A stretch of DNA of 64,000 nt from a virus (Duplodnaviria; Heunggongvirae; Uroviricota; Caudoviricetes), in IMG/VR virus record IMGVR_UViG_2823670853_000002, one strand, 5' to 3'. Positions 3,444 to 50,474 of the stretch are shown here, in pieces (the first letter of the stretch is position 1; the number at the start of each line of letters is the position of its first letter). Made by a program: the position numbers and the translations under genes. The notes below the pieces were generated by a model. The model worked only from the letters and a program-made list of their open reading frames with translations. It was not told where the DNA came from and did no database searches.

Positions 3444-3824
3444 CTACTCCGCAGAACCATACAATCTACGTAACGTGTCGGCGACAGAAGATACAGATAT
3501 CTCGCCAGTCGCAGCGCCTACGGTAAGGTCTGCCAGTTCAGGTGAATCAAATACCTGCACCCCGTTACGGCGTAGAAATAGAAGCGCACTGTTTAGCGCG
3601 GTACGCTTATTGGCATCATTGAATATATGCCCTCTCGCTGTAGCCACCAGGTAGGTGGCGGAGACTTCGAAAAGGTCGGTGATCTCTTCGTAGGCAACTC
3701 TGGCCTGAACTCTCCCGATAATGGCCTCTGCCCTACCCGGATCAGACATTCCCGGCAGGCCGCCGTAGCGGCTTATATTCGCATCATGAAGCGCAATAAG
3801 TTCTTCCGGTGATATATGCCTCAT
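3444..3824 (-). CDS. doc: Doc toxin (Fic/Doc family, translation-inhibiting kinase)
   Basis: 126 aa, [22 protein letters not shown]...[12 protein letters not shown] Fic/Doc core motif; to my recollection near-identical to P1 Doc; start overlaps phd stop. Confidence 0.95.
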
Positions 3825-4045
3825 TATCGGTTAACCAGTTCCTTGTTGGTGGAGTCCAGGGTGTCAAACAGGGATGCAAATTCAGCATCCAGCGCCGCTT
3901 TTTTGTAGGCTTCGAAAGTAGCCTTGCTGACAATTACTGCTGGCTCACGGCCTCTGCGGGTGATTTCAACCTCTTCCCCGGCTTCAACATTGTTGAGCAC
4001 TTCAGAAAGGTTGCCGCGCGCGGTACGGAAGTTAATGGATTGCAT
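3824..4045 (-). CDS. phd: Phd antitoxin (prevent host death)
   Basis: 73 aa from [32 protein letters not shown]...; classic Phd/YefM fold sequence; translationally coupled to doc. Confidence 0.95.
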
Positions 4046-46095: not shown

Positions 46096-46911
46096 ATGAG
46101 CAAAAACTTTTTTCAATCCGGGGCATTTTTGGGGAATGGACTGTCTCGTTTCGCTTTGAACTCTGATCCTGTGCAGCTGATGGAGTCTGCCCGAGCAAGC
46201 GCTGAACCGCCAACAGATCCGGTTATTAATAATAATCCGGAACCGGCGGCACAGACTAACGATAACGTTCCATCTGCCCAGGCTCCTGAGCAAATCCTGG
46301 AAGGGAAAGACGGTAAAGAATGGACCGTCGAACAGGCGCACCAGATGATTCTGGAAGCTGCAAATCGAAGTGCTATGCAAAATGCGTTGAGTGATGCGGC
46401 CGACGCCGTTTTCGCCTGGGCTGATAGCGGTGATCTGACTTTCGACTCCCTTGATGGTTTCGTTCAGGCTATCGCTGGTATCTCTGATGACGACGACTCC
46501 GAAGTTACAGAAGAACAGGACGATGCCTATAACGAAGCATGGGCAAATGTTGCTGACTTCCTCGCAGCATGCGGTGTAGATGATGACCTGATCGAAGCAC
46601 TGGCTGACGATGAAGACGACGACGCAGCTGCTGATGTTGGTGCCTCTATCGCTGGTTTAGATAGCGACGACCGCGACGAACTGGAAGCGGCGTTTGTTGT
46701 TGCTGGCACTTCTGATGAAATGCTGACTGAAGCATTTAAGAAGGTTGTTCGTAACGGTGAGATCAAACTCATCCGTAAACGCCTGCGTAAAAAACGTCTG
46801 ACTGCGGCTCAAAAATCGGCGCTGAAAAAAGCGCGTCGAAAAGCCCAGACCGGCGCGGCAAAACTTGCCCGCAAAAAGTCAATGAAACTGCGCCGTAAGC
46901 GCCTTGGCTAA
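46096..46911 (+). CDS. Acidic protein with Lys/Arg-rich C-terminal tail (virion-associated?)
   Basis: 271 aa; highly acidic middle (DDDDSEVTEEQDD...), C-terminus KLIRKRLRKKRL...RRKAQ...RRKRLG. Confidence 0.35.
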   Translation: MSKNFFQSGAFLGNGLSRFALNSDPVQLMESARASAEPPTDPVINNNPEPAAQTNDNVPSAQAPEQILEGKDGKEWTVEQAHQMILEAANRSAMQNALSDAADAVFAWADSGDLTFDSLDGFVQAIAGISDDDDSEVTEEQDDAYNEAWANVADFLAACGVDDDLIEALADDEDDDAAADVGASIAGLDSDDRDELEAAFVVAGTSDEMLTEAFKKVVRNGEIKLIRKRLRKKRLTAAQKSALKKARRKAQTGAAKLARKKSMKLRRKRLG

Positions 46912-46946
46912 AGGAGGAGGCCGGGGAACTCCGGCCTTTAACTTGA

Positions 46947-47528
46947 ATGGCTCCTATAGCTTATGGGGTTTACAGCCAGGCTGACGGTGTATCGCCATAT
47001 CTGAAAGTTACTTTAACGAACTCTCAGTACCAGGTTACCGGATATATCAGCCAGGGAGCGGCAATGAACATGGCCCAGAATTGGGAAGCGCCGTTTACCG
47101 GTATGTCCATGGGATCTGTTTCTGGTGCTCTGGGTGGTTTTGTGCAAGTAGGTACTGAAACAACGTCGGTTGCCCGTTGGAATAGCTTAATGGTTTGGGA
47201 AGGGGGGACTCCGCCGACGTTCACGCTGCCTGTAACTTTCATTGCTTTGAACAATCCATTCATTGAAGTTTCAGGCGCTATCGCCGCGTTGACAGCCATG
47301 ATTAGCCCGGAACTAAAAGCGGCCAATGTTGGTGGTCGAATCCCGGAGCGCGTGACGCTAAACATTGGTCGCCGGATCAACATCACCGATGTCGCTATCC
47401 AGGACTTAAGTTTTGATCTCGATGCGCCAAGGGACAGTAATGGATATTTCCTGAAAAACACCGTCAACCTCCAGTTGACCGGTTCTTCGATATATAACAG
47501 CTCCGATATTGTTCGGGCGTTCCAGTAA
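46947..47528 (+). CDS. Putative tail tube-like protein
   Basis: 193 aa downstream of sheath; assignment by position and size only. Confidence 0.35.
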   Translation: MAPIAYGVYSQADGVSPYLKVTLTNSQYQVTGYISQGAAMNMAQNWEAPFTGMSMGSVSGALGGFVQVGTETTSVARWNSLMVWEGGTPPTFTLPVTFIALNNPFIEVSGAIAALTAMISPELKAANVGGRIPERVTLNIGRRINITDVAIQDLSFDLDAPRDSNGYFLKNTVNLQLTGSSIYNSSDIVRAFQ

Positions 47529-47539
47529 AAGGATTTTAT

Positions 47540-48049
47540 ATGGGGCACAATAACACTAAGGGAAACCGTAAATTTATTAAGGGCCGCTATACTGCCAACG
47601 CGGCCAAAGGCGAACGACTGGTATCTTCTGAATTCCAGCTCACTTTTGCAGGCCATGAAGATATCAGCGTACTGGTTCGCACGTCGCAAATCCCTGAAAT
47701 GACTCGCGAGGATGTGGAGGACTATGGTCCGAATGGTGTGAAGTTCAACCAGCACGGACCAATTCGAAACTCTGGGGAAATCCAGGTCCAGTGCGTGGAG
47801 ACTATCGAAGGCGATATTCTTCAGTTCATCAAGGATCGCATTGCGGCGAAGGACTATGTTGATATCACGATGGCTGCGACCCCTGAATCCAAATCTTCCG
47901 GGGTTAACGCTGTGACAAAAGCTGCTACAACAATTGAAATGTTGGACTGCAAAATCTACAGTGATGCAATCGACTTTAGTACCGAAGATGTGACTGCCGC
48001 TGTGCGCCCGTCACTTCGTATCGTCTACAACTGGATTGAGTGGGATTAA
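47540..48049 (+). CDS. Hypothetical tail-module protein
   Basis: 169-aa ORF ending at a bidirectional terminator. Confidence 0.35.
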   Translation: MGHNNTKGNRKFIKGRYTANAAKGERLVSSEFQLTFAGHEDISVLVRTSQIPEMTREDVEDYGPNGVKFNQHGPIRNSGEIQVQCVETIEGDILQFIKDRIAAKDYVDITMAATPESKSSGVNAVTKAATTIEMLDCKIYSDAIDFSTEDVTAAVRPSLRIVYNWIEWD

Positions 48050-48067
48050 GAGTCATCCCTTGTATTT

Positions 48068-48093
48068 TAAAGCTCCTTCGGGAGCTTTTTTAT
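48068..48093. terminator. Rho-independent terminator (bidirectional) between tail block and hok locus
   Basis: AGCTCC-TTCG-GGAGCT hairpin followed by TTTTTTA and preceded by TTTTAAA. Confidence 0.55.
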
Positions 48094-48165
48094 TTGGAGA
48101 GGAAAGGGTGCATTGAGGATACCTGACACACGAAGAGTGACGGGGATCTCTCCCCGCCAGGTCTC

Positions 48166-48321
48166 TTACCTTTCAGATTCGTAGGCTGTGAAGACAGTGA
48201 CCTCCGTCTGGCCGGTTCGGATTCGTACCTCGCAGAGGTCTTTCCTCGTTACCAGTGCCGTCACAATGACGGTTAAACAGATGACGATCAGAGCGATTAA
48301 CATCGCTTTTTGCTGCTTCAT
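48166..48321 (-). CDS. hok: Hok/Gef-family type I toxin (51 aa), unlisted short ORF
   Basis: MKQQKAMLIALIVICLTVIVTALVTRKDLCEVRIRTGQTEVTVFTAYESER matches the Hok pattern (…LTRKSLCEIRYRDG.REVAAFMAYES…). Confidence 0.8.
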   Translation of the reverse strand: MKQQKAMLIALIVICLTVIVTALVTRKDLCEVRIRTGQTEVTVFTAYESER

Positions 48322-48379
48322 AGCCTGCTTCTCCTTGACCTTTTGGTCGGTAAGAGGCTAATCTACGTATGCTAAGCAT
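48173..48379 (-). CDS. mok: Mok-like overlapping reading frame
   Basis: 68-aa ORF starting upstream of hok and overlapping it completely in another frame, as mok does in hok/sok loci. Confidence 0.5.
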   Translation of the reverse strand: MLSIRRLASYRPKGQGEAGYEAAKSDVNRSDRHLFNRHCDGTGNEERPLRGTNPNRPDGGHCLHSLRI

Positions 48380-48430
48380 AGATATGGCCTCAGATTAATG
48401 TTAAGCGTCTTGCAGGACGCGTAATGTTAT
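48371..48430 (+). ncRNA. sok: Predicted Sok-like antisense RNA (position inferred, not resolved)
   Basis: Plus-strand promoter-like TTGACC (48335) N18 TAATCT (48359) would drive a short transcript antisense to the mok start/leader; hairpin GCGTC-TTGCAG-GACGC at 48404-48419. Confidence 0.3.
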
Positions 48431-48502
48431 CTGGGGCTTTCTTCTATCTGCTTTTCGGGTAATGCCTGAAGCAGATAGCCTCAAGCACCCGCAACGATTG
48501 TA

Positions 48503-48748
48503 TCAATGTCTGGCTTTTTTTCTATAGAAATCACCAGGAAGGGTGAATATCCACATCAGAAGAAATGTTGCAGCAAACATGATCCCTAATGGCCAGACCG
48601 CGCCAAAGAAAATCCATACTAAGATCTCCTCTGCTCGTTCTTTGCGGTCGATATCGACAAGCATTTTTCGGCTGATCATGTATACACAGAAGCCAATACA
48701 AACATATCCTGCAAAAGCGATCGCTAACTGTAAAAAATCAGATTGCAT
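48503..48748 (-). CDS. Small membrane protein
   Basis: ~81 aa from internal Met (MQSDFLQLAIAFAGYVCIGFCVY...), three hydrophobic segments; longer frame would overlap repL. Confidence 0.35.
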   Translation of the reverse strand: MQSDFLQLAIAFAGYVCIGFCVYMISRKMLVDIDRKERAEEILVWIFFGAVWPLGIMFAATFLLMWIFTLPGDFYRKKARH

Positions 48749-48798
48749 CTCCGACCTCAAACTGAAAACGCCAGGTGACTCCAGATTAGAGCAATCTA

Positions 48799-49644
48799 TC
48801 ACCCTCTGAATCCTGCCGGTATACCCCATTGTTCGTTATCTTTATTTTTGGCTAAAACCGCATTAAGAGCTTCGTTTACCGTCATGCAATGCGGCAGATT
48901 ATCGAAGTTTGATATCCCGCCAATATCAGGAGAACGCTTGTTCTTCAGGTAAGCATATTTCCGCGCTGTCGCCTCTACTTTCTGCTTGAACTCATGTTTT
49001 TGAGCGCGTTTTTTGGATAACCGCAGATTGTCAGCCTTTGCTTTTGCCTCAGCGATCCATGAAGTCAGTTTTTTGAGGCTGCTCGTTCCGGCACCGCCGG
49101 AAACTGATCTTTTTGTTTTTTTAATTTGTGACTTCTTATTCTTTATTGCCACGTCATCCTGACAGGGGGAGGGGGTATCATTTTGACATGGGGGTGTGGA
49201 TAAAAAATCAAATAAAGCCAATGTCTTAGCGAGAACAGCTTTAACCTTGGTTGCGGCTGAAGAGATCTTTAATTTGCTTTCAATTAGCGCATTTTTGGCT
49301 TGTTGAGCAAAGGCTAAAAAGGATGGTGTAAACCGGTACAGGTTAGCGCGGCGTTCACGGTGATCGCCGATAACAATCTCTACAGACAGGATTCCTTTGT
49401 TTACAGCTTCACGGAATGCACGAACGACGGTTGATTGGCTATAACCAGTTTCTGCCGCGATCAGGCGGTGAGGCTTGTGAATGAAGTATTCACAGGTTGT
49501 TGCCGCGAGATTTGCACATTGCGATAGGATATGCCCGGCGCTACGGGATAGACCGGAGTGTGTTACAAAGCAGGCCAATTCATAGCCAGAAAAAGTAAAA
49601 TCGCTCATCGTTATACAGCTCAGGAAAGTGACTTTAGCCAGCAT
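48799..49644 (-). CDS. repL: Lytic replication protein RepL-like
   Basis: 281 aa; winged-helix-like N-terminal region, basic serine-rich middle; downstream of kilA in a C1-operator-controlled operon, as P1 repL. Confidence 0.6.
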   Translation of the reverse strand: MLAKVTFLSCITMSDFTFSGYELACFVTHSGLSRSAGHILSQCANLAATTCEYFIHKPHRLIAAETGYSQSTVVRAFREAVNKGILSVEIVIGDHRERRANLYRFTPSFLAFAQQAKNALIESKLKISSAATKVKAVLAKTLALFDFLSTPPCQNDTPSPCQDDVAIKNKKSQIKKTKRSVSGGAGTSSLKKLTSWIAEAKAKADNLRLSKKRAQKHEFKQKVEATARKYAYLKNKRSPDIGGISNFDNLPHCMTVNEALNAVLAKNKDNEQWGIPAGFRG

Positions 49645-49673
49645 TACAATGCTGGTGGTTCTTACTACGTCTG

Positions 49674-50474
49674 TTAGCGCGTAGCCGCGACAGGTACCAG
49701 CACACCAGCATCAAGCAATCGCTTCATTAGCCACTGCTGACCTTTGCCGGTTATACGAGTCGTGAAAGAAATCCTGCTTCCGTTGCTTGTATCGATCACG
49801 GTTTCTTTGAGGGTGAAGTACCCACGGGATATGTATTCTTGTTTGGGGACGTTCCTGCGTTCACCGGTTGCGATCAGAATTCCGTTATCACGCAACCAGG
49901 TGAAGAGATAGTTTTGGCCCAGGCCGAGCACTTTGGCATAGTTGCCGATTAGAACCCCGCTGGCGGTAGCAACGCGTTCGGCGAATTCGACTTTAGGTGC
50001 ATCCATAAGCATTTTTTGCTCCAGCCGTTGCTTTTGCTCTGCCAGGTCGGCAGCCAAACGGAGAGCTTCTGGGAGGCTCTTCGGAATAGCAGGTTGTAAT
50101 CTTCCAGCTCGATAGTCGATAAATGTCTGGTTTACCTTCAGCCGAAACGCGGGAGAAATCCAGCCTGCGTACTCCACAGCGAGCAATTCATGGGCAAAAG
50201 TGCCGCCGCCACGGCCTTCGAACGAAACTATGCAATTCTGCATAGTTTCTTTTTCAAGCTCTTCGATGAGCTGTTTGGCTGACAGCGTTCTTAGCCATTG
50301 AGCTGGCGCTTTATGGGCACCGAGTCCGCTCGCTCTGTGTAGAGCATTAAGGTTGTAACGGCCAGCGCGGTCGGTCGTAATTTCAACACCACAAATAACA
50401 GGCAGAGTGGTTGAAGGATCGACATTTTGATGAAGGTTTGATATATTCATATCCGCATTGAATGTTTGTTGCAT
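49674..50474 (-). CDS. kilA: KilA (KilA-N domain with antirepressor-like C-terminal domain)
   Basis: 266 aa; C-terminal ~110 aa are highly similar to the Ant C-terminus (PKVEFAERVATASGVLIGNYAKV... vs PKVDFADRVSVANGILIGNFAKV...). Confidence 0.65.
   Translation of the reverse strand: MQQTFNADMNISNLHQNVDPSTTLPVICGVEITTDRAGRYNLNALHRASGLGAHKAPAQWLRTLSAKQLIEELEKETMQNCIVSFEGRGGGTFAHELLAVEYAGWISPAFRLKVNQTFIDYRAGRLQPAIPKSLPEALRLAADLAEQKQRLEQKMLMDAPKVEFAERVATASGVLIGNYAKVLGLGQNYLFTWLRDNGILIATGERRNVPKQEYISRGYFTLKETVIDTSNGSRISFTTRITGKGQQWLMKRLLDAGVLVPVAATR

What the first reader, a model, noticed from the sequence alone, without database searches (positions are those of the whole stretch)
48100..48500. 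hok/mok/sok-like type I toxin locus between the tail genes and repL
An unlisted 51-aa ORF is an unmistakable Hok-family toxin (…LTRKDLCEVRIRTGQTEVTVFTAYESER) fully overlapped by a mok-like frame, with a promoter-like element on the opposite strand positioned for a Sok antisense RNA. The element therefore carries a second addiction module in addition to phd-doc. Such a locus would be missed by any ORF caller using a 60-aa cutoff.
Basis: seen in the sequence. Interest (0 to 1): 0.55.

Follow-up and report, generated by a model that had tools for sequence, protein, structure and literature searches.

The report
Known hok/sok toxin locus, P1-like plasmid
The region is a complete, apparently intact hok/mok/sok type I toxin-antitoxin locus carried by a P1-like phage-plasmid; it is a well-known kind of module that databases already annotate in hundreds of near-identical plasmids, so it is real but ordinary.

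Summary
A 51-aa Hok toxin ORF lies at 48166..48321 on the minus strand (Pfam HOK_GEF 78.7 bits, cut-off 22). Its leader matches Rfam 'sok' at 114.9 bits (gathering score 59). A mok frame starts at 48379. A Sok promoter on the opposite strand (TTGACC-18 nt-TAATCT, 48335..48364) aligns with the experimentally mutated -10 of sokW. The ~385-nt hok transcript (48490 to about 48100) shows the family's 5'/3' end-pairing (tac-fbi), with fold z = -9.3 and compensatory changes across 27 relatives.

The element is a P1-like phage-plasmid that also carries phd-doc (3447..4045). The hok locus sits in a 693-bp cassette (48092..48784) that replaces rlfA-rlfB-pmgF of classical P1.

None of this is new. PGAP labels the ORF 'hokD' in 216 PLSDB plasmids with this arrangement, against 99 with the classical one. 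PHROGs holds it as 'MokW-like host killing'. [quoted passage not shown] The replacement of rlfAB-pmgF by 'an antibacterial toxin' is already in the P1 literature.

Function here (post-segregational killing, possibly help with lysis at induction) is inferred. Verdict: interpretation supported, already known, low interest.

The parts
48092..48784 (.). 693-bp cassette absent from classical P1. It replaces part of the C1 operator Orlf plus rlfA, rlfB and pmgF, and holds ORF81 and the hok/mok/sok locus.
   Evidence: BLASTN of the window against P1 NC_005856 shows homology only at 46901..48091 and 48785..50370. Junction sequences are and the P1 annotation.
48497..48524 (-). Candidate hok promoter: -35 TAGAAA (48524..48519), 16-nt spacer, TG-extended -10 TACAAT (48502..48497). 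It overlaps the 3' end of ORF81.
   Evidence: Consensus scan. The -10 aligns with TATGAT of the R1-type locus, 6-7 nt upstream of the conserved 5' GG(G/C)GCUUGAGG. Function is inferred.
48099..48490 (-). hok (mok-hok) mRNA. The 5' end is at G 48490 by homology (Rfam model position 1, and where homology starts in other genomes). The 3' end is inferred to lie shortly after fbi, in the U-rich CUUUCCUCUCC; it is not determined.
   Evidence: Rfam hit starts at 48490. Homology in 47 loci from other genomes runs from tac to the end of fbi. MFE fold -166 kcal/mol, z = -9.28. Structure conserved: 84.3% of cells paired against ~41% in slid controls.
48479..48490 (-). tac (translational activator element), GGGUGCUUGAGG, at the mRNA 5' end.
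   Evidence: Pairs with fbi in the full-length fold. U4:A changes to C:G in 8 of 27 relatives. Can alternatively pair with ucb.
48433..48441 (-). ucb (anti-SD box), GAAAGCCCC, which sequesters the mok SD in the closed form.
   Evidence: Partners of mok SD nt 100-104 are nt 54-58 in the full-length MFE. Invariant in 27 relatives. Definition taken from PMC9841398.
48371..48445 (+). Predicted Sok antisense RNA (~75 nt): a 5' single-stranded tail, a long hairpin and a 3' GGGGCUUUCUUCU tail. It is complementary to the mok SD, the mok AUG and the target loop. Ends are approximate (about +/-3 nt).
   Evidence: Position follows from the homologous promoter. Fold -31.8 kcal/mol, z = -5.33. The stem shows 6 pairs with double changes and 92.3% pairing (helix 5). 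sokW is reported as 71 nt complementary to the hokW 5'-UTR and was seen on northern blots.
48335..48364 (+). Sok promoter: -35 TTGACC (48335..48340), 18-nt spacer, -10 TAATCT (48359..48364).
   Evidence: Coordinates. Aligns with R1-type TTGCGC/TATCCT and with sokW TTGCCT/TAACCT. The published sokW promoter-less construct changes exactly this hexamer (primer YO-421; alignment). Not found by the strict scan.
48173..48391 (-). mok: SD GAGG (48391..48388), ATG at 48379, 68 codons, stop codon at 48175..48173; +1 frame relative to hok.
   Evidence: ORF list. SD and ATG located. The ATG is conserved in 25 of 27 relatives, but its frame relation to hok varies. No Pfam or NCBIfam family.
48354..48359 (-). 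dcb (downstream complementary box), AGCCUC, which pairs with the mok SD in the open, processed form. It abuts the Sok -10 hexamer on the other strand (sharing base 48359) and lies in the Sok promoter spacer.
   Evidence: In the enforced tac/ucb fold of the trimmed RNA, the mok SD pairs with nt 133-137. This helix is pairable in 100% of cells across 27 relatives. Definition from PMC9841398.
48166..48321 (-). hok toxin gene (51 aa); SD AAGGAG lies upstream at 48336..48331.
   Evidence: Pfam PF01848 78.7 bits. PHROG 251 E = 4.9e-32. 48/50 identical to K-12 HokD. 47/51 identical to the HokW-type protein of Stx2 phage I.
48106..48118 (-). fbi (fold-back inhibitory element), CCUCAAUGCACCC, complementary to tac with one bulged U.
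   Evidence: Located. Paired to nt 1-12 in the MFE. Homology in other genomes ends exactly here. Covariation.
48503..48748 (-). ORF81, a small predicted two-TM membrane protein of unknown function that shares the cassette with hok. Probably not part of the toxin-antitoxin mechanism.
   Evidence: Annotated as hypothetical protein WP_001426344.1 in pE2-2. phrog_3772, E = 6e-54, unknown function. Found only in P1-like phages. Absent from hok loci elsewhere.

Best explanation
This is a complete hok/mok/sok type I toxin-antitoxin locus of the HokD/HokW clade, carried as cargo by a P1-like plasmid prophage. The inferred mechanism is as follows.

A weak constitutive promoter (around 48524..48497, minus strand) makes a stable mRNA of about 390 nt. 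Its extreme 5' end (tac) pairs with a 3' element (fbi). In this closed form the mok Shine-Dalgarno is held by the upstream anti-SD box (ucb), so neither ribosomes nor Sok can engage. Slow 3' exonucleolytic trimming removes fbi. tac then re-pairs with ucb, and the mok SD moves into a hairpin with dcb, which presents a loop to Sok.

While the element is present, the short-lived ~75-nt Sok RNA, made from the opposite strand (48371..48445), pairs with this region, blocks mok translation and triggers RNase III cleavage. If Sok synthesis stops, whether by plasmid loss or by transcription shut-off, the processed mRNA pool is translated. Ribosomes reading mok open the hok start, and the 51-aa Hok inserts in the inner membrane and collapses the membrane potential.

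On a one-to-two-copy plasmid prophage the main pay-off is post-segregational killing, adding to phd-doc. Shown here: the sequence elements, their conservation and covariation, and the closed fold. Inferred: transcription, processing, toxicity, and the selective benefit.
For: - Toxin: Pfam HOK_GEF 78.7 bits against a cut-off of 22. PHROG 251 'MokW-like host killing', E = 4.9e-32. 48/50 identical to K-12 HokD. 47/51 identical to the HokW-type protein, whose Sp5 orthologue is toxic on induction, localises to the inner membrane and is neutralised by sokW (PMC8621323).
- Leader: Rfam RF01794 114.9 bits against 59, full model 1-157.
- Closed fold: tac 48490..48479 paired with fbi 48118..48106, z = -9.28.
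- Conservation: across 27 relatives from Escherichia to Photorhabdus and Erwinia, the window's structure is 84.3% paired against ~41% when partners are slid. 40 pairs change on both sides against 15-20 in slid controls. This includes U:A to C:G in tac-fbi and six covarying pairs in the Sok/target hairpin.
- Conserved unit: homology elsewhere spans exactly tac to fbi.
- Switch: the open tac/ucb conformer is +15.4 kcal/mol in full-length RNA but +5.5 to +6.9 after 3' trimming, and it then gives the published mok SD/dcb stem. Both alternative helices are pairable in 97.5-100% of cells.
- Sok: the promoter is homologous to the mutationally validated sokW -10. The Sok hairpin has z = -5.33.
- mok: SD and ATG are conserved, with translation reaching the hok start in 25 of 27 relatives, matching the rule that mok translation, not the Mok protein, matters (PMC9841398).
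- Context and maintenance: a low-copy P1-like plasmid prophage with phd-doc. The cassette is 99% or more identical in hundreds of plasmids.
Against: - No experimental data exist for this copy. Sok transcription, mRNA ends, 3' processing, toxicity and plasmid stabilisation are all inferred.
- The Sok promoter fails a strict sigma-70 consensus scan (-10 matches only 3 of 6, 18-nt spacer).
- Plain MFE folding of the trimmed mRNA puts tac in a local 5' hairpin and keeps the mok SD sequestered. The activating refolding is therefore not reproduced thermodynamically, although the R1-type positive control behaves the same way.
- tac/ucb and SD/dcb are invariant, so they carry no covariation support.
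- There is no convincing intrinsic terminator for the hok transcript. The hairpin at 48069..48088 has its U-run on the other strand.
- Many chromosomal hok loci are known to be inactive, and NCBIfam Hok HMMs score below their cut-offs (49.5 against 73).
- The closest studied homologue (hokW-sokW) was assigned a different biological role, aiding phage release and not plasmid maintenance.
Confidence: 0.88

Rival explanations
1. Same locus and same RNA switch, but its selected role on this temperate phage is to assist the lytic cycle. On induction Sok disappears, Hok is made early, the membrane is damaged and progeny release is advanced or increased, as reported for hokW-sokW of prophage Sp5. This is not mutually exclusive with addiction.
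For: The closest experimentally studied relative is phage-borne. Its leader and Sok region are near-identical (alignment; Stx2-phage copies are ~88% identical in nucleotides over the shared unit). Its Hok is 47/51 identical. That relative halves phage yield when deleted, with sokW lost after mitomycin C in a RecA-dependent way (PMC8621323). The hokD/hokW clade is overwhelmingly prophage-borne. Here the locus sits directly downstream of, and co-oriented with, the C1-controlled kilA-repL lytic-replication operon, and convergent with the late tail operon. Induction could therefore perturb hok/Sok transcription.
Against: The Sp5 effect is modest (about 2-fold) and its trigger is not understood. 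Classical P1 and 99 PLSDB plasmids lack the cassette entirely and are viable phages. P1 has its own holin, antiholin and endolysin system (general knowledge of P1). A terminator-like hairpin (48546..48531, minus strand) lies between repL/ORF81 and the hok promoter. Nothing was tested for P1-like elements.
Confidence: 0.3
2. Same locus, but acting mainly as an abortive-infection or phage-exclusion device. A superinfecting lytic phage shuts off host transcription, Sok decays, Hok kills the cell and the competitor's yield falls, protecting clonal lysogens.
For: R1 hok/sok on a high-copy plasmid reduced T4 plating efficiency by 42% and plaque size by about 85%, as cited in PMC8621323. P1-like variable regions often hold defence cargo, and this slot is one of eight hypervariable regions (PMC9603915). 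The mechanism needs nothing beyond the elements shown.
Against: The reported effect is weak and was obtained at high copy number, whereas this element is low copy. No defence-specific feature was found, and I did not scan the PADLOC defence library. There is no experimental evidence for the hokD/hokW clade.
Confidence: 0.15
3. A decayed or silent hok relic with no current function, like several E. coli K-12 chromosomal hok loci, hitch-hiking in a recombination hot spot.
For: K-12 hokD retains only the ORF-to-fbi part and lacks the whole leader. Near-identity among P1-like plasmids could reflect recent spread and not selection. IS186B is known to have inserted into the 3'-UTR hairpin of this locus in one P1-like plasmid (PMC6906374; the target GGATCTCTCC is at 48144..48153).
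Against: Every regulatory element is present and unmutated at the positions that are invariant across 27 diverged relatives. The ORF is intact with a full-length Pfam match. Both promoters are present. An intact hok with a dead sok would be lethal, and an intact sok with a dead hok is not what is seen.
Confidence: 0.05

Closest known systems
hokW-sokW of Stx2 prophage Sp5 / 933W-type phages (Takada et al. 2021, PMC8621323)
   Same: Same clade. The Hok-type protein of Stx2 phage I is 47/51 identical. Stx2-phage copies are about 88% identical in nucleotides from the promoter -10 to fbi. Both have the extra GC-rich tip on the Sok/target hairpin and the same Sok -10 position. Both are carried by a temperate phage.
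   Different: The host element is an integrated lambdoid prophage, not a plasmid prophage. The Sok -35 is TTGCCT with a 17-nt spacer there, against TTGACC with 18 nt here; that 1-nt difference also shifts mok from in-frame to the +1 frame. The Hok C-terminal residues differ (AVFVDYESEK against TVFTAYESER). Its role was reported as aiding phage release.
hok/sok (parB) of plasmid R1, the founding member
   Same: Same architecture, element by element: promoter -10, tac, ucb, mok SD and ATG, dcb, Sok promoter, hok SD and ATG, and fbi all align. Same plasmid-maintenance context, and the same predicted closed fold.
   Different: Hok is only 42% identical. The R1 Sok/target hairpin lacks the ~19-nt GC-rich tip (16 extra nt against the Rfam consensus). 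R1 has a longer 5' hairpin. In the R1-type copy used here, mok is in frame with hok.
hokD (relF) of E. coli K-12, Qin prophage
   Same: The toxin is 48/50 identical, with 91% nucleotide identity from just upstream of the hok ATG to fbi. This is why PGAP names the window's ORF hokD.
   Different: K-12 hokD sits 71 nt downstream of relE and lacks the entire leader: no tac, ucb, mok start or Sok gene. The window's copy is the complete, regulated form.
Classical phage P1 (NC_005856), repL-bplB interval
   Same: The flanks are the same: repL is 97.6% identical, and bplB plus its terminator are 99.3% identical. phd-doc, the C4 RNA and the tRNAs are present as in P1.
   Different: P1 has Orlf, rlfA, rlfB and pmgF (about 1.8 kb) where this element has ORF81 plus hok/mok/sok (693 bp). 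This is already described as a variable region (PMC6906374; PMC9603915).

Membership tests
hok/sok type I toxin-antitoxin family (Hok/Gef toxins) | Toxin ORF of about 50 aa matching the Hok/Gef profile (N-terminal TM helix, conserved C-terminal region) | tested here: met
   Pfam PF01848 78.7 bits against a cut-off of 22, profile 1-42/42. PHROG 251 E = 4.9e-32.
hok/sok type I toxin-antitoxin family (Hok/Gef toxins) | Long structured 5' leader matching the curated covariance model of the hok leader / Sok region | tested here: met
   Rfam RF01794 114.9 bits against a gathering score of 59, full length 1-157, at 48316..48490 (-). Note that the model is in hok-sense orientation.
hok/sok type I toxin-antitoxin family (Hok/Gef toxins) | tac-fbi pairing between the extreme 5' end and a 3' element of the mRNA (closed, inert form) | tested here: met
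   12 bp with one bulge in the MFE, z = -9.28. 86.1% of cells paired across 27 relatives, with U:A to C:G compensation in 8. Homology elsewhere starts at tac and ends at fbi.
hok/sok type I toxin-antitoxin family (Hok/Gef toxins) | mok leader frame with its own SD, starting upstream of hok and translated at least up to the hok start | tested here: met
   SD GAGG 48391..48388, ATG 48379, 68 codons. The ATG is conserved in 25 of 27 relatives, and the frame always reaches the hok start although its phase varies.
hok/sok type I toxin-antitoxin family (Hok/Gef toxins) | ucb (anti-SD) sequestering the mok SD, with alternative tac/ucb and SD/dcb pairings after 3' processing | tested here: inconclusive
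   ucb-SD pairing is present in the closed fold. The alternative helices are pairable in 97.5% and 100% of cells but are invariant, so there is no covariation. The open form comes within 5.5-6.9 kcal/mol of the MFE after trimming but is never the MFE, and the R1-type control behaves the same.
hok/sok type I toxin-antitoxin family (Hok/Gef toxins) | Antisense Sok gene with its own promoter inside the leader, complementary to the mok translation-initiation region | tested here: met
   At sequence level: TTGACC-18-TAATCT at 48335..48364 (+), homologous to the R1 and sokW promoters. The sokW -10 was validated by mutation. The predicted 75-nt RNA folds with z = -5.33. The promoter fails the strict consensus scan. 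Transcription was not tested.
hok/sok type I toxin-antitoxin family (Hok/Gef toxins) | Hok toxicity, neutralisation by Sok, and post-segregational killing | not testable with these tools
   Shown only for relatives: HokW/sokW (PMC8621323) and R1 hok/Sok (PMC9841398).
HokD as named by NCBI (hokD/relF equivalog) | Protein-level match to curated NCBIfam Hok models above their cut-offs | tested here: not met
   The best NCBIfam hits are below their cut-offs: NF007279 Hok family 49.5 bits against 73, and NF007290 HokA 38.1 against 89. The hokD name in RefSeq records therefore rests on near-identity to K-12 HokD (48/50), not on an HMM.
HokD as named by NCBI (hokD/relF equivalog) | K-12 hokD locus organisation (relB-relE-hokD, no mok or sok) | tested here: not met
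   The window's copy has the full leader, mok and Sok, and no relBE upstream. The K-12 copy has 71 nt between relE and hokD.

The most novel reading that the evidence does not exclude
On P1-like phage-plasmids, the hok/sok cassette may be wired into the lysis-lysogeny circuit by its position and not act as a free-standing addiction module. It lies directly downstream of, and co-oriented with, the C1-repressed kilA-repL lytic operon. Its repL-side junction cuts the C1 operator Orlf, keeping 11 of 17 nt. It faces the late tail operon head-on across a shared hairpin. Read-through or transcriptional interference at induction could then shut off Sok or produce hok transcripts, so that Hok acts as an induction-coupled lysis or abortive timer. 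This would also explain why the hok version of the slot is about twice as common as the classical rlfAB-pmgF version.
Probability: 0.12. Interest if true: 0.4.

Novelty: already known. Interest (0 to 1): 0.13.

Why it matters
It matters little as a discovery. hok/sok is the textbook type I toxin-antitoxin system. This exact cassette is annotated in hundreds of P1-like plasmids. Its clade has been characterised experimentally on an O157 prophage. The replacement of rlfAB-pmgF by a toxin gene is already noted in the P1 literature.

Three practical points remain:
- Many medically relevant P1-like phage-plasmids, including carriers of resistance genes, have two independent addiction-type modules (phd-doc and hok/sok), which should make them harder to cure.
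- The hok arrangement, not the classical P1 one, is the commoner state of this slot.
- Annotation is inconsistent. The toxin ORF is variously called HokD, MokW or hypothetical, the Rfam 'sok' hit marks the hok-sense strand, and Sok and mok are almost never annotated.

Tried and rejected
1. The strict sigma-70 scan for a plus-strand Sok promoter found none. I replaced it with a homology argument.
2. Plain MFE folding of 3'-trimmed hok mRNA, meant to reproduce the activating switch, always gave the metastable 5' hairpin with the mok SD still sequestered. The R1-type control fails in the same way, so I treat this as a limit of the method.
3. In one search I enforced the wrong 'tac-ucb' pairing (GAGGCU with AGCCUC, +20 kcal/mol) because I had mislabelled ucb and dcb from memory. 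I corrected this after reading PMC9841398. The helix CCUCUUAC/GUAAGAG (nt 135-141 with 322-328) is a further conserved long-range helix, not ucb-dcb.
4. NCBIfam gave no hit above its cut-offs.
5. Pfam and NCBIfam searches on the Mok product found nothing, consistent with Mok having no conserved protein sequence.
6. I looked for a second hok copy or other Hok-like ORFs in the window and found none.
7. Base composition shows no clear anomaly over the cassette.
8. Literature searches for an explicit description of hok/sok on P1-like elements found only indirect mentions ('antibacterial toxin', PMC6906374) and no dedicated study.
9. I rejected a chance ORF or spurious small ORF (E-values and covariation) and a decayed relic (all elements intact).
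10. I did not use the large protein-database searches, structure prediction or PADLOC. The family assignment was already unambiguous.
Full report
**1. What is in the sequence**

On the minus strand there is a 51-aa ORF at 48166..48321 (MKQQKAMLIALIVICLTVIVTALVTRKDLCEVRIRTGQTEVTVFTAYESER). A 68-aa ORF at 48173..48379, in the +1 frame, overlaps all but its last 7 nt.

The 51-aa product matches Pfam HOK_GEF over the whole profile (78.7 bits, cut-off 22, E = 2.4e-22). It also matches PHROG 251 'MokW-like host killing' (E = 4.9e-32).

The 175 nt upstream of the hok ATG (48316..48490, minus strand) match Rfam RF01794 'sok' end to end, at 114.9 bits against a gathering score of 59. That hit is on the hok-sense strand, and the model ends at the hok AUG. 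It therefore models the hok mRNA leader, in which the Sok gene is embedded on the other strand. It verifies the locus but not an antisense transcript as such.

**2. Anatomy** (mRNA nt n corresponds to window coordinate 48491 - n)

- *hok promoter.* The candidate is TAGAAA, 16 nt, then TG-extended TACAAT at 48524..48497 on the minus strand. Its -10 aligns with that of an R1-type locus.
- *Transcript start.* By homology the transcript starts at G 48490 with tac, GGGUGCUUGAGG.
- *ucb.* The ucb anti-SD box GAAAGCCCC lies at 48441..48433.
- *mok and dcb.* The mok SD GAGG is at 48391..48388 and the mok ATG at 48379. The dcb AGCCUC is at 48359..48354.
- *hok.* The SD AAGGAG lies just upstream of the ATG at 48321, and the hok ORF ends (stop codon included) at 48166.
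- *3' UTR.* A GC-rich hairpin follows, then fbi, CCUCAAUGCACCC, at 48118..48106. Element definitions come from Le Rhun et al. 2022 (PMC9841398).
- *Sok promoter.* On the plus strand, TTGACC (48335..48340), 18 nt, TAATCT (48359..48364). It predicts a Sok RNA of about 75 nt (48371..48445) complementary to the mok SD and AUG.
- *Sok RNA.* It folds into a 5' single-stranded tail plus a long hairpin and a U-rich tail (-31.8 kcal/mol, z = -5.33).

The strict consensus scan does not find the Sok promoter, because the -10 matches only 3 of 6 positions. However, it aligns base for base with the R1-type promoter and with the sokW promoter of Stx2 phages. The published 'promoter-less' sokW construct changes exactly this hexamer (TAACCT to GAGCCG, primer YO-421) and loses antitoxin activity.

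**3. Is the RNA architecture real?**

The transcript folds with its 5' end paired to fbi, at -166 kcal/mol with z = -9.28 against dinucleotide shuffles.

I fetched 47 hok loci from one genome per species. Homology to the window begins at tac and ends at the last base of fbi in most of them (the same holds in E. coli genomes). The conserved unit is therefore the transcript itself.

On an alignment of 27 distinct sequences from Escherichia, Kluyvera, Citrobacter, Photorhabdus, Erwinia and Kalamiella, the window's own MFE structure holds up well:
- 84.3% of cells are paired, against about 41% when partners are slid by 1-3 columns.
- 40 pairs change on both sides, against 15-20 in the slid controls.
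- None of 500 shuffles reaches the observed values for four of the five measures.

The tac-fbi helix shows U4:A to C:G compensation in eight sequences. The Sok/target hairpin has six covarying pairs and 92.3% pairing.

**4. The switch**

In the closed fold the mok SD is paired to ucb.

I first tested a wrong tac/'ucb' pairing from memory. After reading PMC9841398 I used the correct register (G2-C58, G3-C57, G5-C55, C6-G54, U7-A53, U8-A52).

Enforcing it costs 15.4 kcal/mol in the full-length RNA, but only 5.5-6.9 kcal/mol once the 3' end is trimmed to 48130-48135. The mok SD then pairs with dcb (nt 133-137). A small hairpin also forms whose loop, CUUAGCAUA, is complementary to the predicted 5' end of Sok. 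This matches the published R1 model qualitatively.

The open form is never the MFE. The R1-type control sequence behaves the same way, so this is a limit of equilibrium folding and not evidence against function.

tac/ucb and SD/dcb can form in 97.5% and 100% of cells across the 27 relatives, but they are invariant, so they give no covariation signal.

**5. mok**

The mok ATG and SD are conserved in 25 of 27 relatives, but the phase relative to hok is not:
- It is +1 in the window and a few others, because of one extra base in ...AAAGGTCAAGG....
- It is in frame in most relatives, giving an N-extended Hok.
- In some it is a 19-codon frame that stops at the hok start.

No protein family matches Mok. 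This fits the experimental conclusion that translation of mok up to the hok start matters, and not the Mok product (PMC9841398).

**6. What the element is, and where the locus sits**

The window is a P1-like phage-plasmid. It is 99.3-99.7% identical to many E. coli and Salmonella plasmids and to phage records labelled P1 or Punavirus. bplB is at 47540..48049 (+) and repL at 48799..49644 (-). phd-doc lies at 3447..4045 (-). The P1 C4 antisense RNA, its targets and three tRNAs are also present.

Compared with classical P1 (NC_005856), homology stops at 48091 and resumes at 48785. The 693-bp segment between holds the hok locus plus an 81-aa membrane ORF. It replaces about 1.8 kb with rlfA, rlfB and pmgF.

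The bplB-side junction follows the T-run of the bplB terminator hairpin. The repL-side junction falls inside the C1 operator Orlf, keeping ATTGCTCTAAT.

In PLSDB, 216 plasmids carry the bplB-hok-repL arrangement (80% or more of a 1-kb probe) against 99 with the classical segment.

**7. Comparison with what is known**

- *Closest clade.* The toxin is 48/50 identical to K-12 HokD/RelF and 47/51 identical to the HokW-type protein of Stx2 phages.
- *K-12 hokD is truncated.* It lies 71 nt downstream of relE and lacks the whole leader. The window's copy is the complete, regulated form.
- *hokW-sokW is characterised.* In prophage Sp5, HokW is toxic and localises to the inner membrane. sokW (71 nt complementary to the hokW 5'-UTR) neutralises it, with help from RNase III and Hfq. 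Both RNAs were seen on northern blots. sokW disappears on induction, and deleting the locus halves phage yield (PMC8621323).
- *Distribution.* Sequences of this locus type occur in 4739 of 5426 complete E. coli genomes, mostly on chromosomal prophages.
- *Database labels.* RefSeq plasmid records call this ORF 'hokD: type I toxin-antitoxin system toxin HokD'. One phage record calls it 'MokW'.
- *P1 literature.* Venturini et al. [quoted passage not shown] A survey of 77 P1-like elements lists rlfA-rlfB-pmgF as one of eight hypervariable regions (PMC9603915). I found no paper that dissects hok/sok on P1-like elements.

**8. Function**

The best-supported reading is a standard hok/mok/sok module that adds post-segregational killing to a one-to-two-copy plasmid prophage already equipped with phd-doc.

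Two alternative pay-offs use the same molecular switch and are not exclusive. One is help with lysis and release at induction, as for hokW-sokW; the locus lies just downstream of the C1-controlled kilA-repL operon and faces the late tail operon. The other is exclusion of superinfecting lytic phages, as reported weakly for R1 hok/sok against T4 (cited).

A silent relic is unlikely, because every invariant position of the family is intact.

**9. Verdict**

The feature is already known and annotated, so interest is low. The unresolved points are experimental: Sok transcription, the mRNA 3' end (no convincing terminator in the hok direction), toxicity, and which of the three pay-offs applies on a P1-like element.

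Noticed in passing
window 48503..48748 (-): An 81-aa predicted two-TM protein (MQSDFLQLAI...RKKARH; the mechanical ORF call extends it to 108 aa from 48829) shares the 693-bp cassette with hok. It matches phrog_3772 (unknown function, E = 6e-54). It occurs only in P1-like phages (11 phage records, with a 44%-identical homologue in SJ46) and is not linked to hok elsewhere. The hok promoter overlaps its 3' end.
   Followed up: partly
window 48785..48801 (-), next to the repL stop: The repL-side junction of the cassette falls inside the P1 C1 operator Orlf (formerly Op55). The window keeps ATTGCTCTAAT (11 of 17 nt) and then diverges (CTGGAG against TATAAC in P1). Whether C1 still binds, and whether it controls ORF81, is unknown.
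   Followed up: partly
window 48144..48153: [quoted passage not shown] That insertion would separate fbi from the hok mRNA.
   Followed up: partly
window 48316..48490 (-), Rfam RF01794: The Rfam family named 'sok antitoxin' matches the hok-sense strand, is 157 nt long and ends at the hok AUG. It therefore models the hok mRNA leader and not the ~70-nt Sok RNA. Automated annotation from this model would place 'sok' on the wrong strand and with the wrong extent.
   Followed up: yes
window 48173..48379 (-) and alignment A2: The phase of mok relative to hok is not conserved in the family. It is +1 here and in a few relatives, in frame (an N-extended Hok of 68-70 aa) in most, and a 19-codon frame ending at the hok start in some Escherichia and Erwinia loci. 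A single extra T in AAAGGTCAAGG, which also creates the TTGACC Sok -35 with an 18-nt spacer, makes the difference from hokW.
   Followed up: yes
window 48404..48422 (hok mRNA nt 69-87) and alignment A2 columns 71-88: A 16-20-nt insertion (16 nt relative to the Rfam consensus, 18-20 alignment columns) forms a GC-rich tip (GCGUC...GACGC) on the Sok/target hairpin. It is specific to the hokD/hokW clade and absent from the hokC-type, Photorhabdus, Erwinia and R1 loci. Compensatory changes occur in two relatives (L025, L027).
   Followed up: partly
records MH422554.1 (L001 6267..6422), PHROG 251, NCBIfam: Naming is inconsistent. The Hok toxin ORF is labelled 'MokW' in a phage record and in PHROGs ('MokW-like host killing'), 'HokD' by PGAP, and 'hypothetical' or unannotated in other P1-like phage records. 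NCBIfam Hok HMMs score below their cut-offs (49.5 against 73 bits). mok and Sok are not annotated in any record examined.
   Followed up: yes
L014 (Acinetobacter idrijaensis, 275-bp contig), L026 (Xanthomonas pisi, 431-bp contig), L006 (Kluyvera cryocrescens): The 275-bp L014 contig is 99% identical to the window's hok locus and includes P1-specific flank; it looks like contamination by E. coli P1-like DNA. The 431-bp L026 contig is 88% identical over the hok unit only (Hok residues 1-41 identical), so it looks like contamination from an E. coli-type hok locus. The Kluyvera hit (99% over 467 nt on a 16.7-kb contig) may be a genuine P1-like plasmid.
   Followed up: no
window 51947..52153 (-) and 28068..29934 (-): The P1 immunity C4 antisense RNA (RF01695, 69.6 bits) and its a1/b1 targets (RF03163) are present, along with three tRNA genes. 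These are the expected P1 features.
   Followed up: no
window 48069..48088: The hairpin AAAGCTCCTTCGGGAGCTTT, shared with classical P1, has its T-run only in the bplB direction. In the hok direction it is followed by AAAAU. The hok transcript therefore has no obvious intrinsic terminator and converges on the tail operon, so its real 3' end is open.
   Followed up: partly
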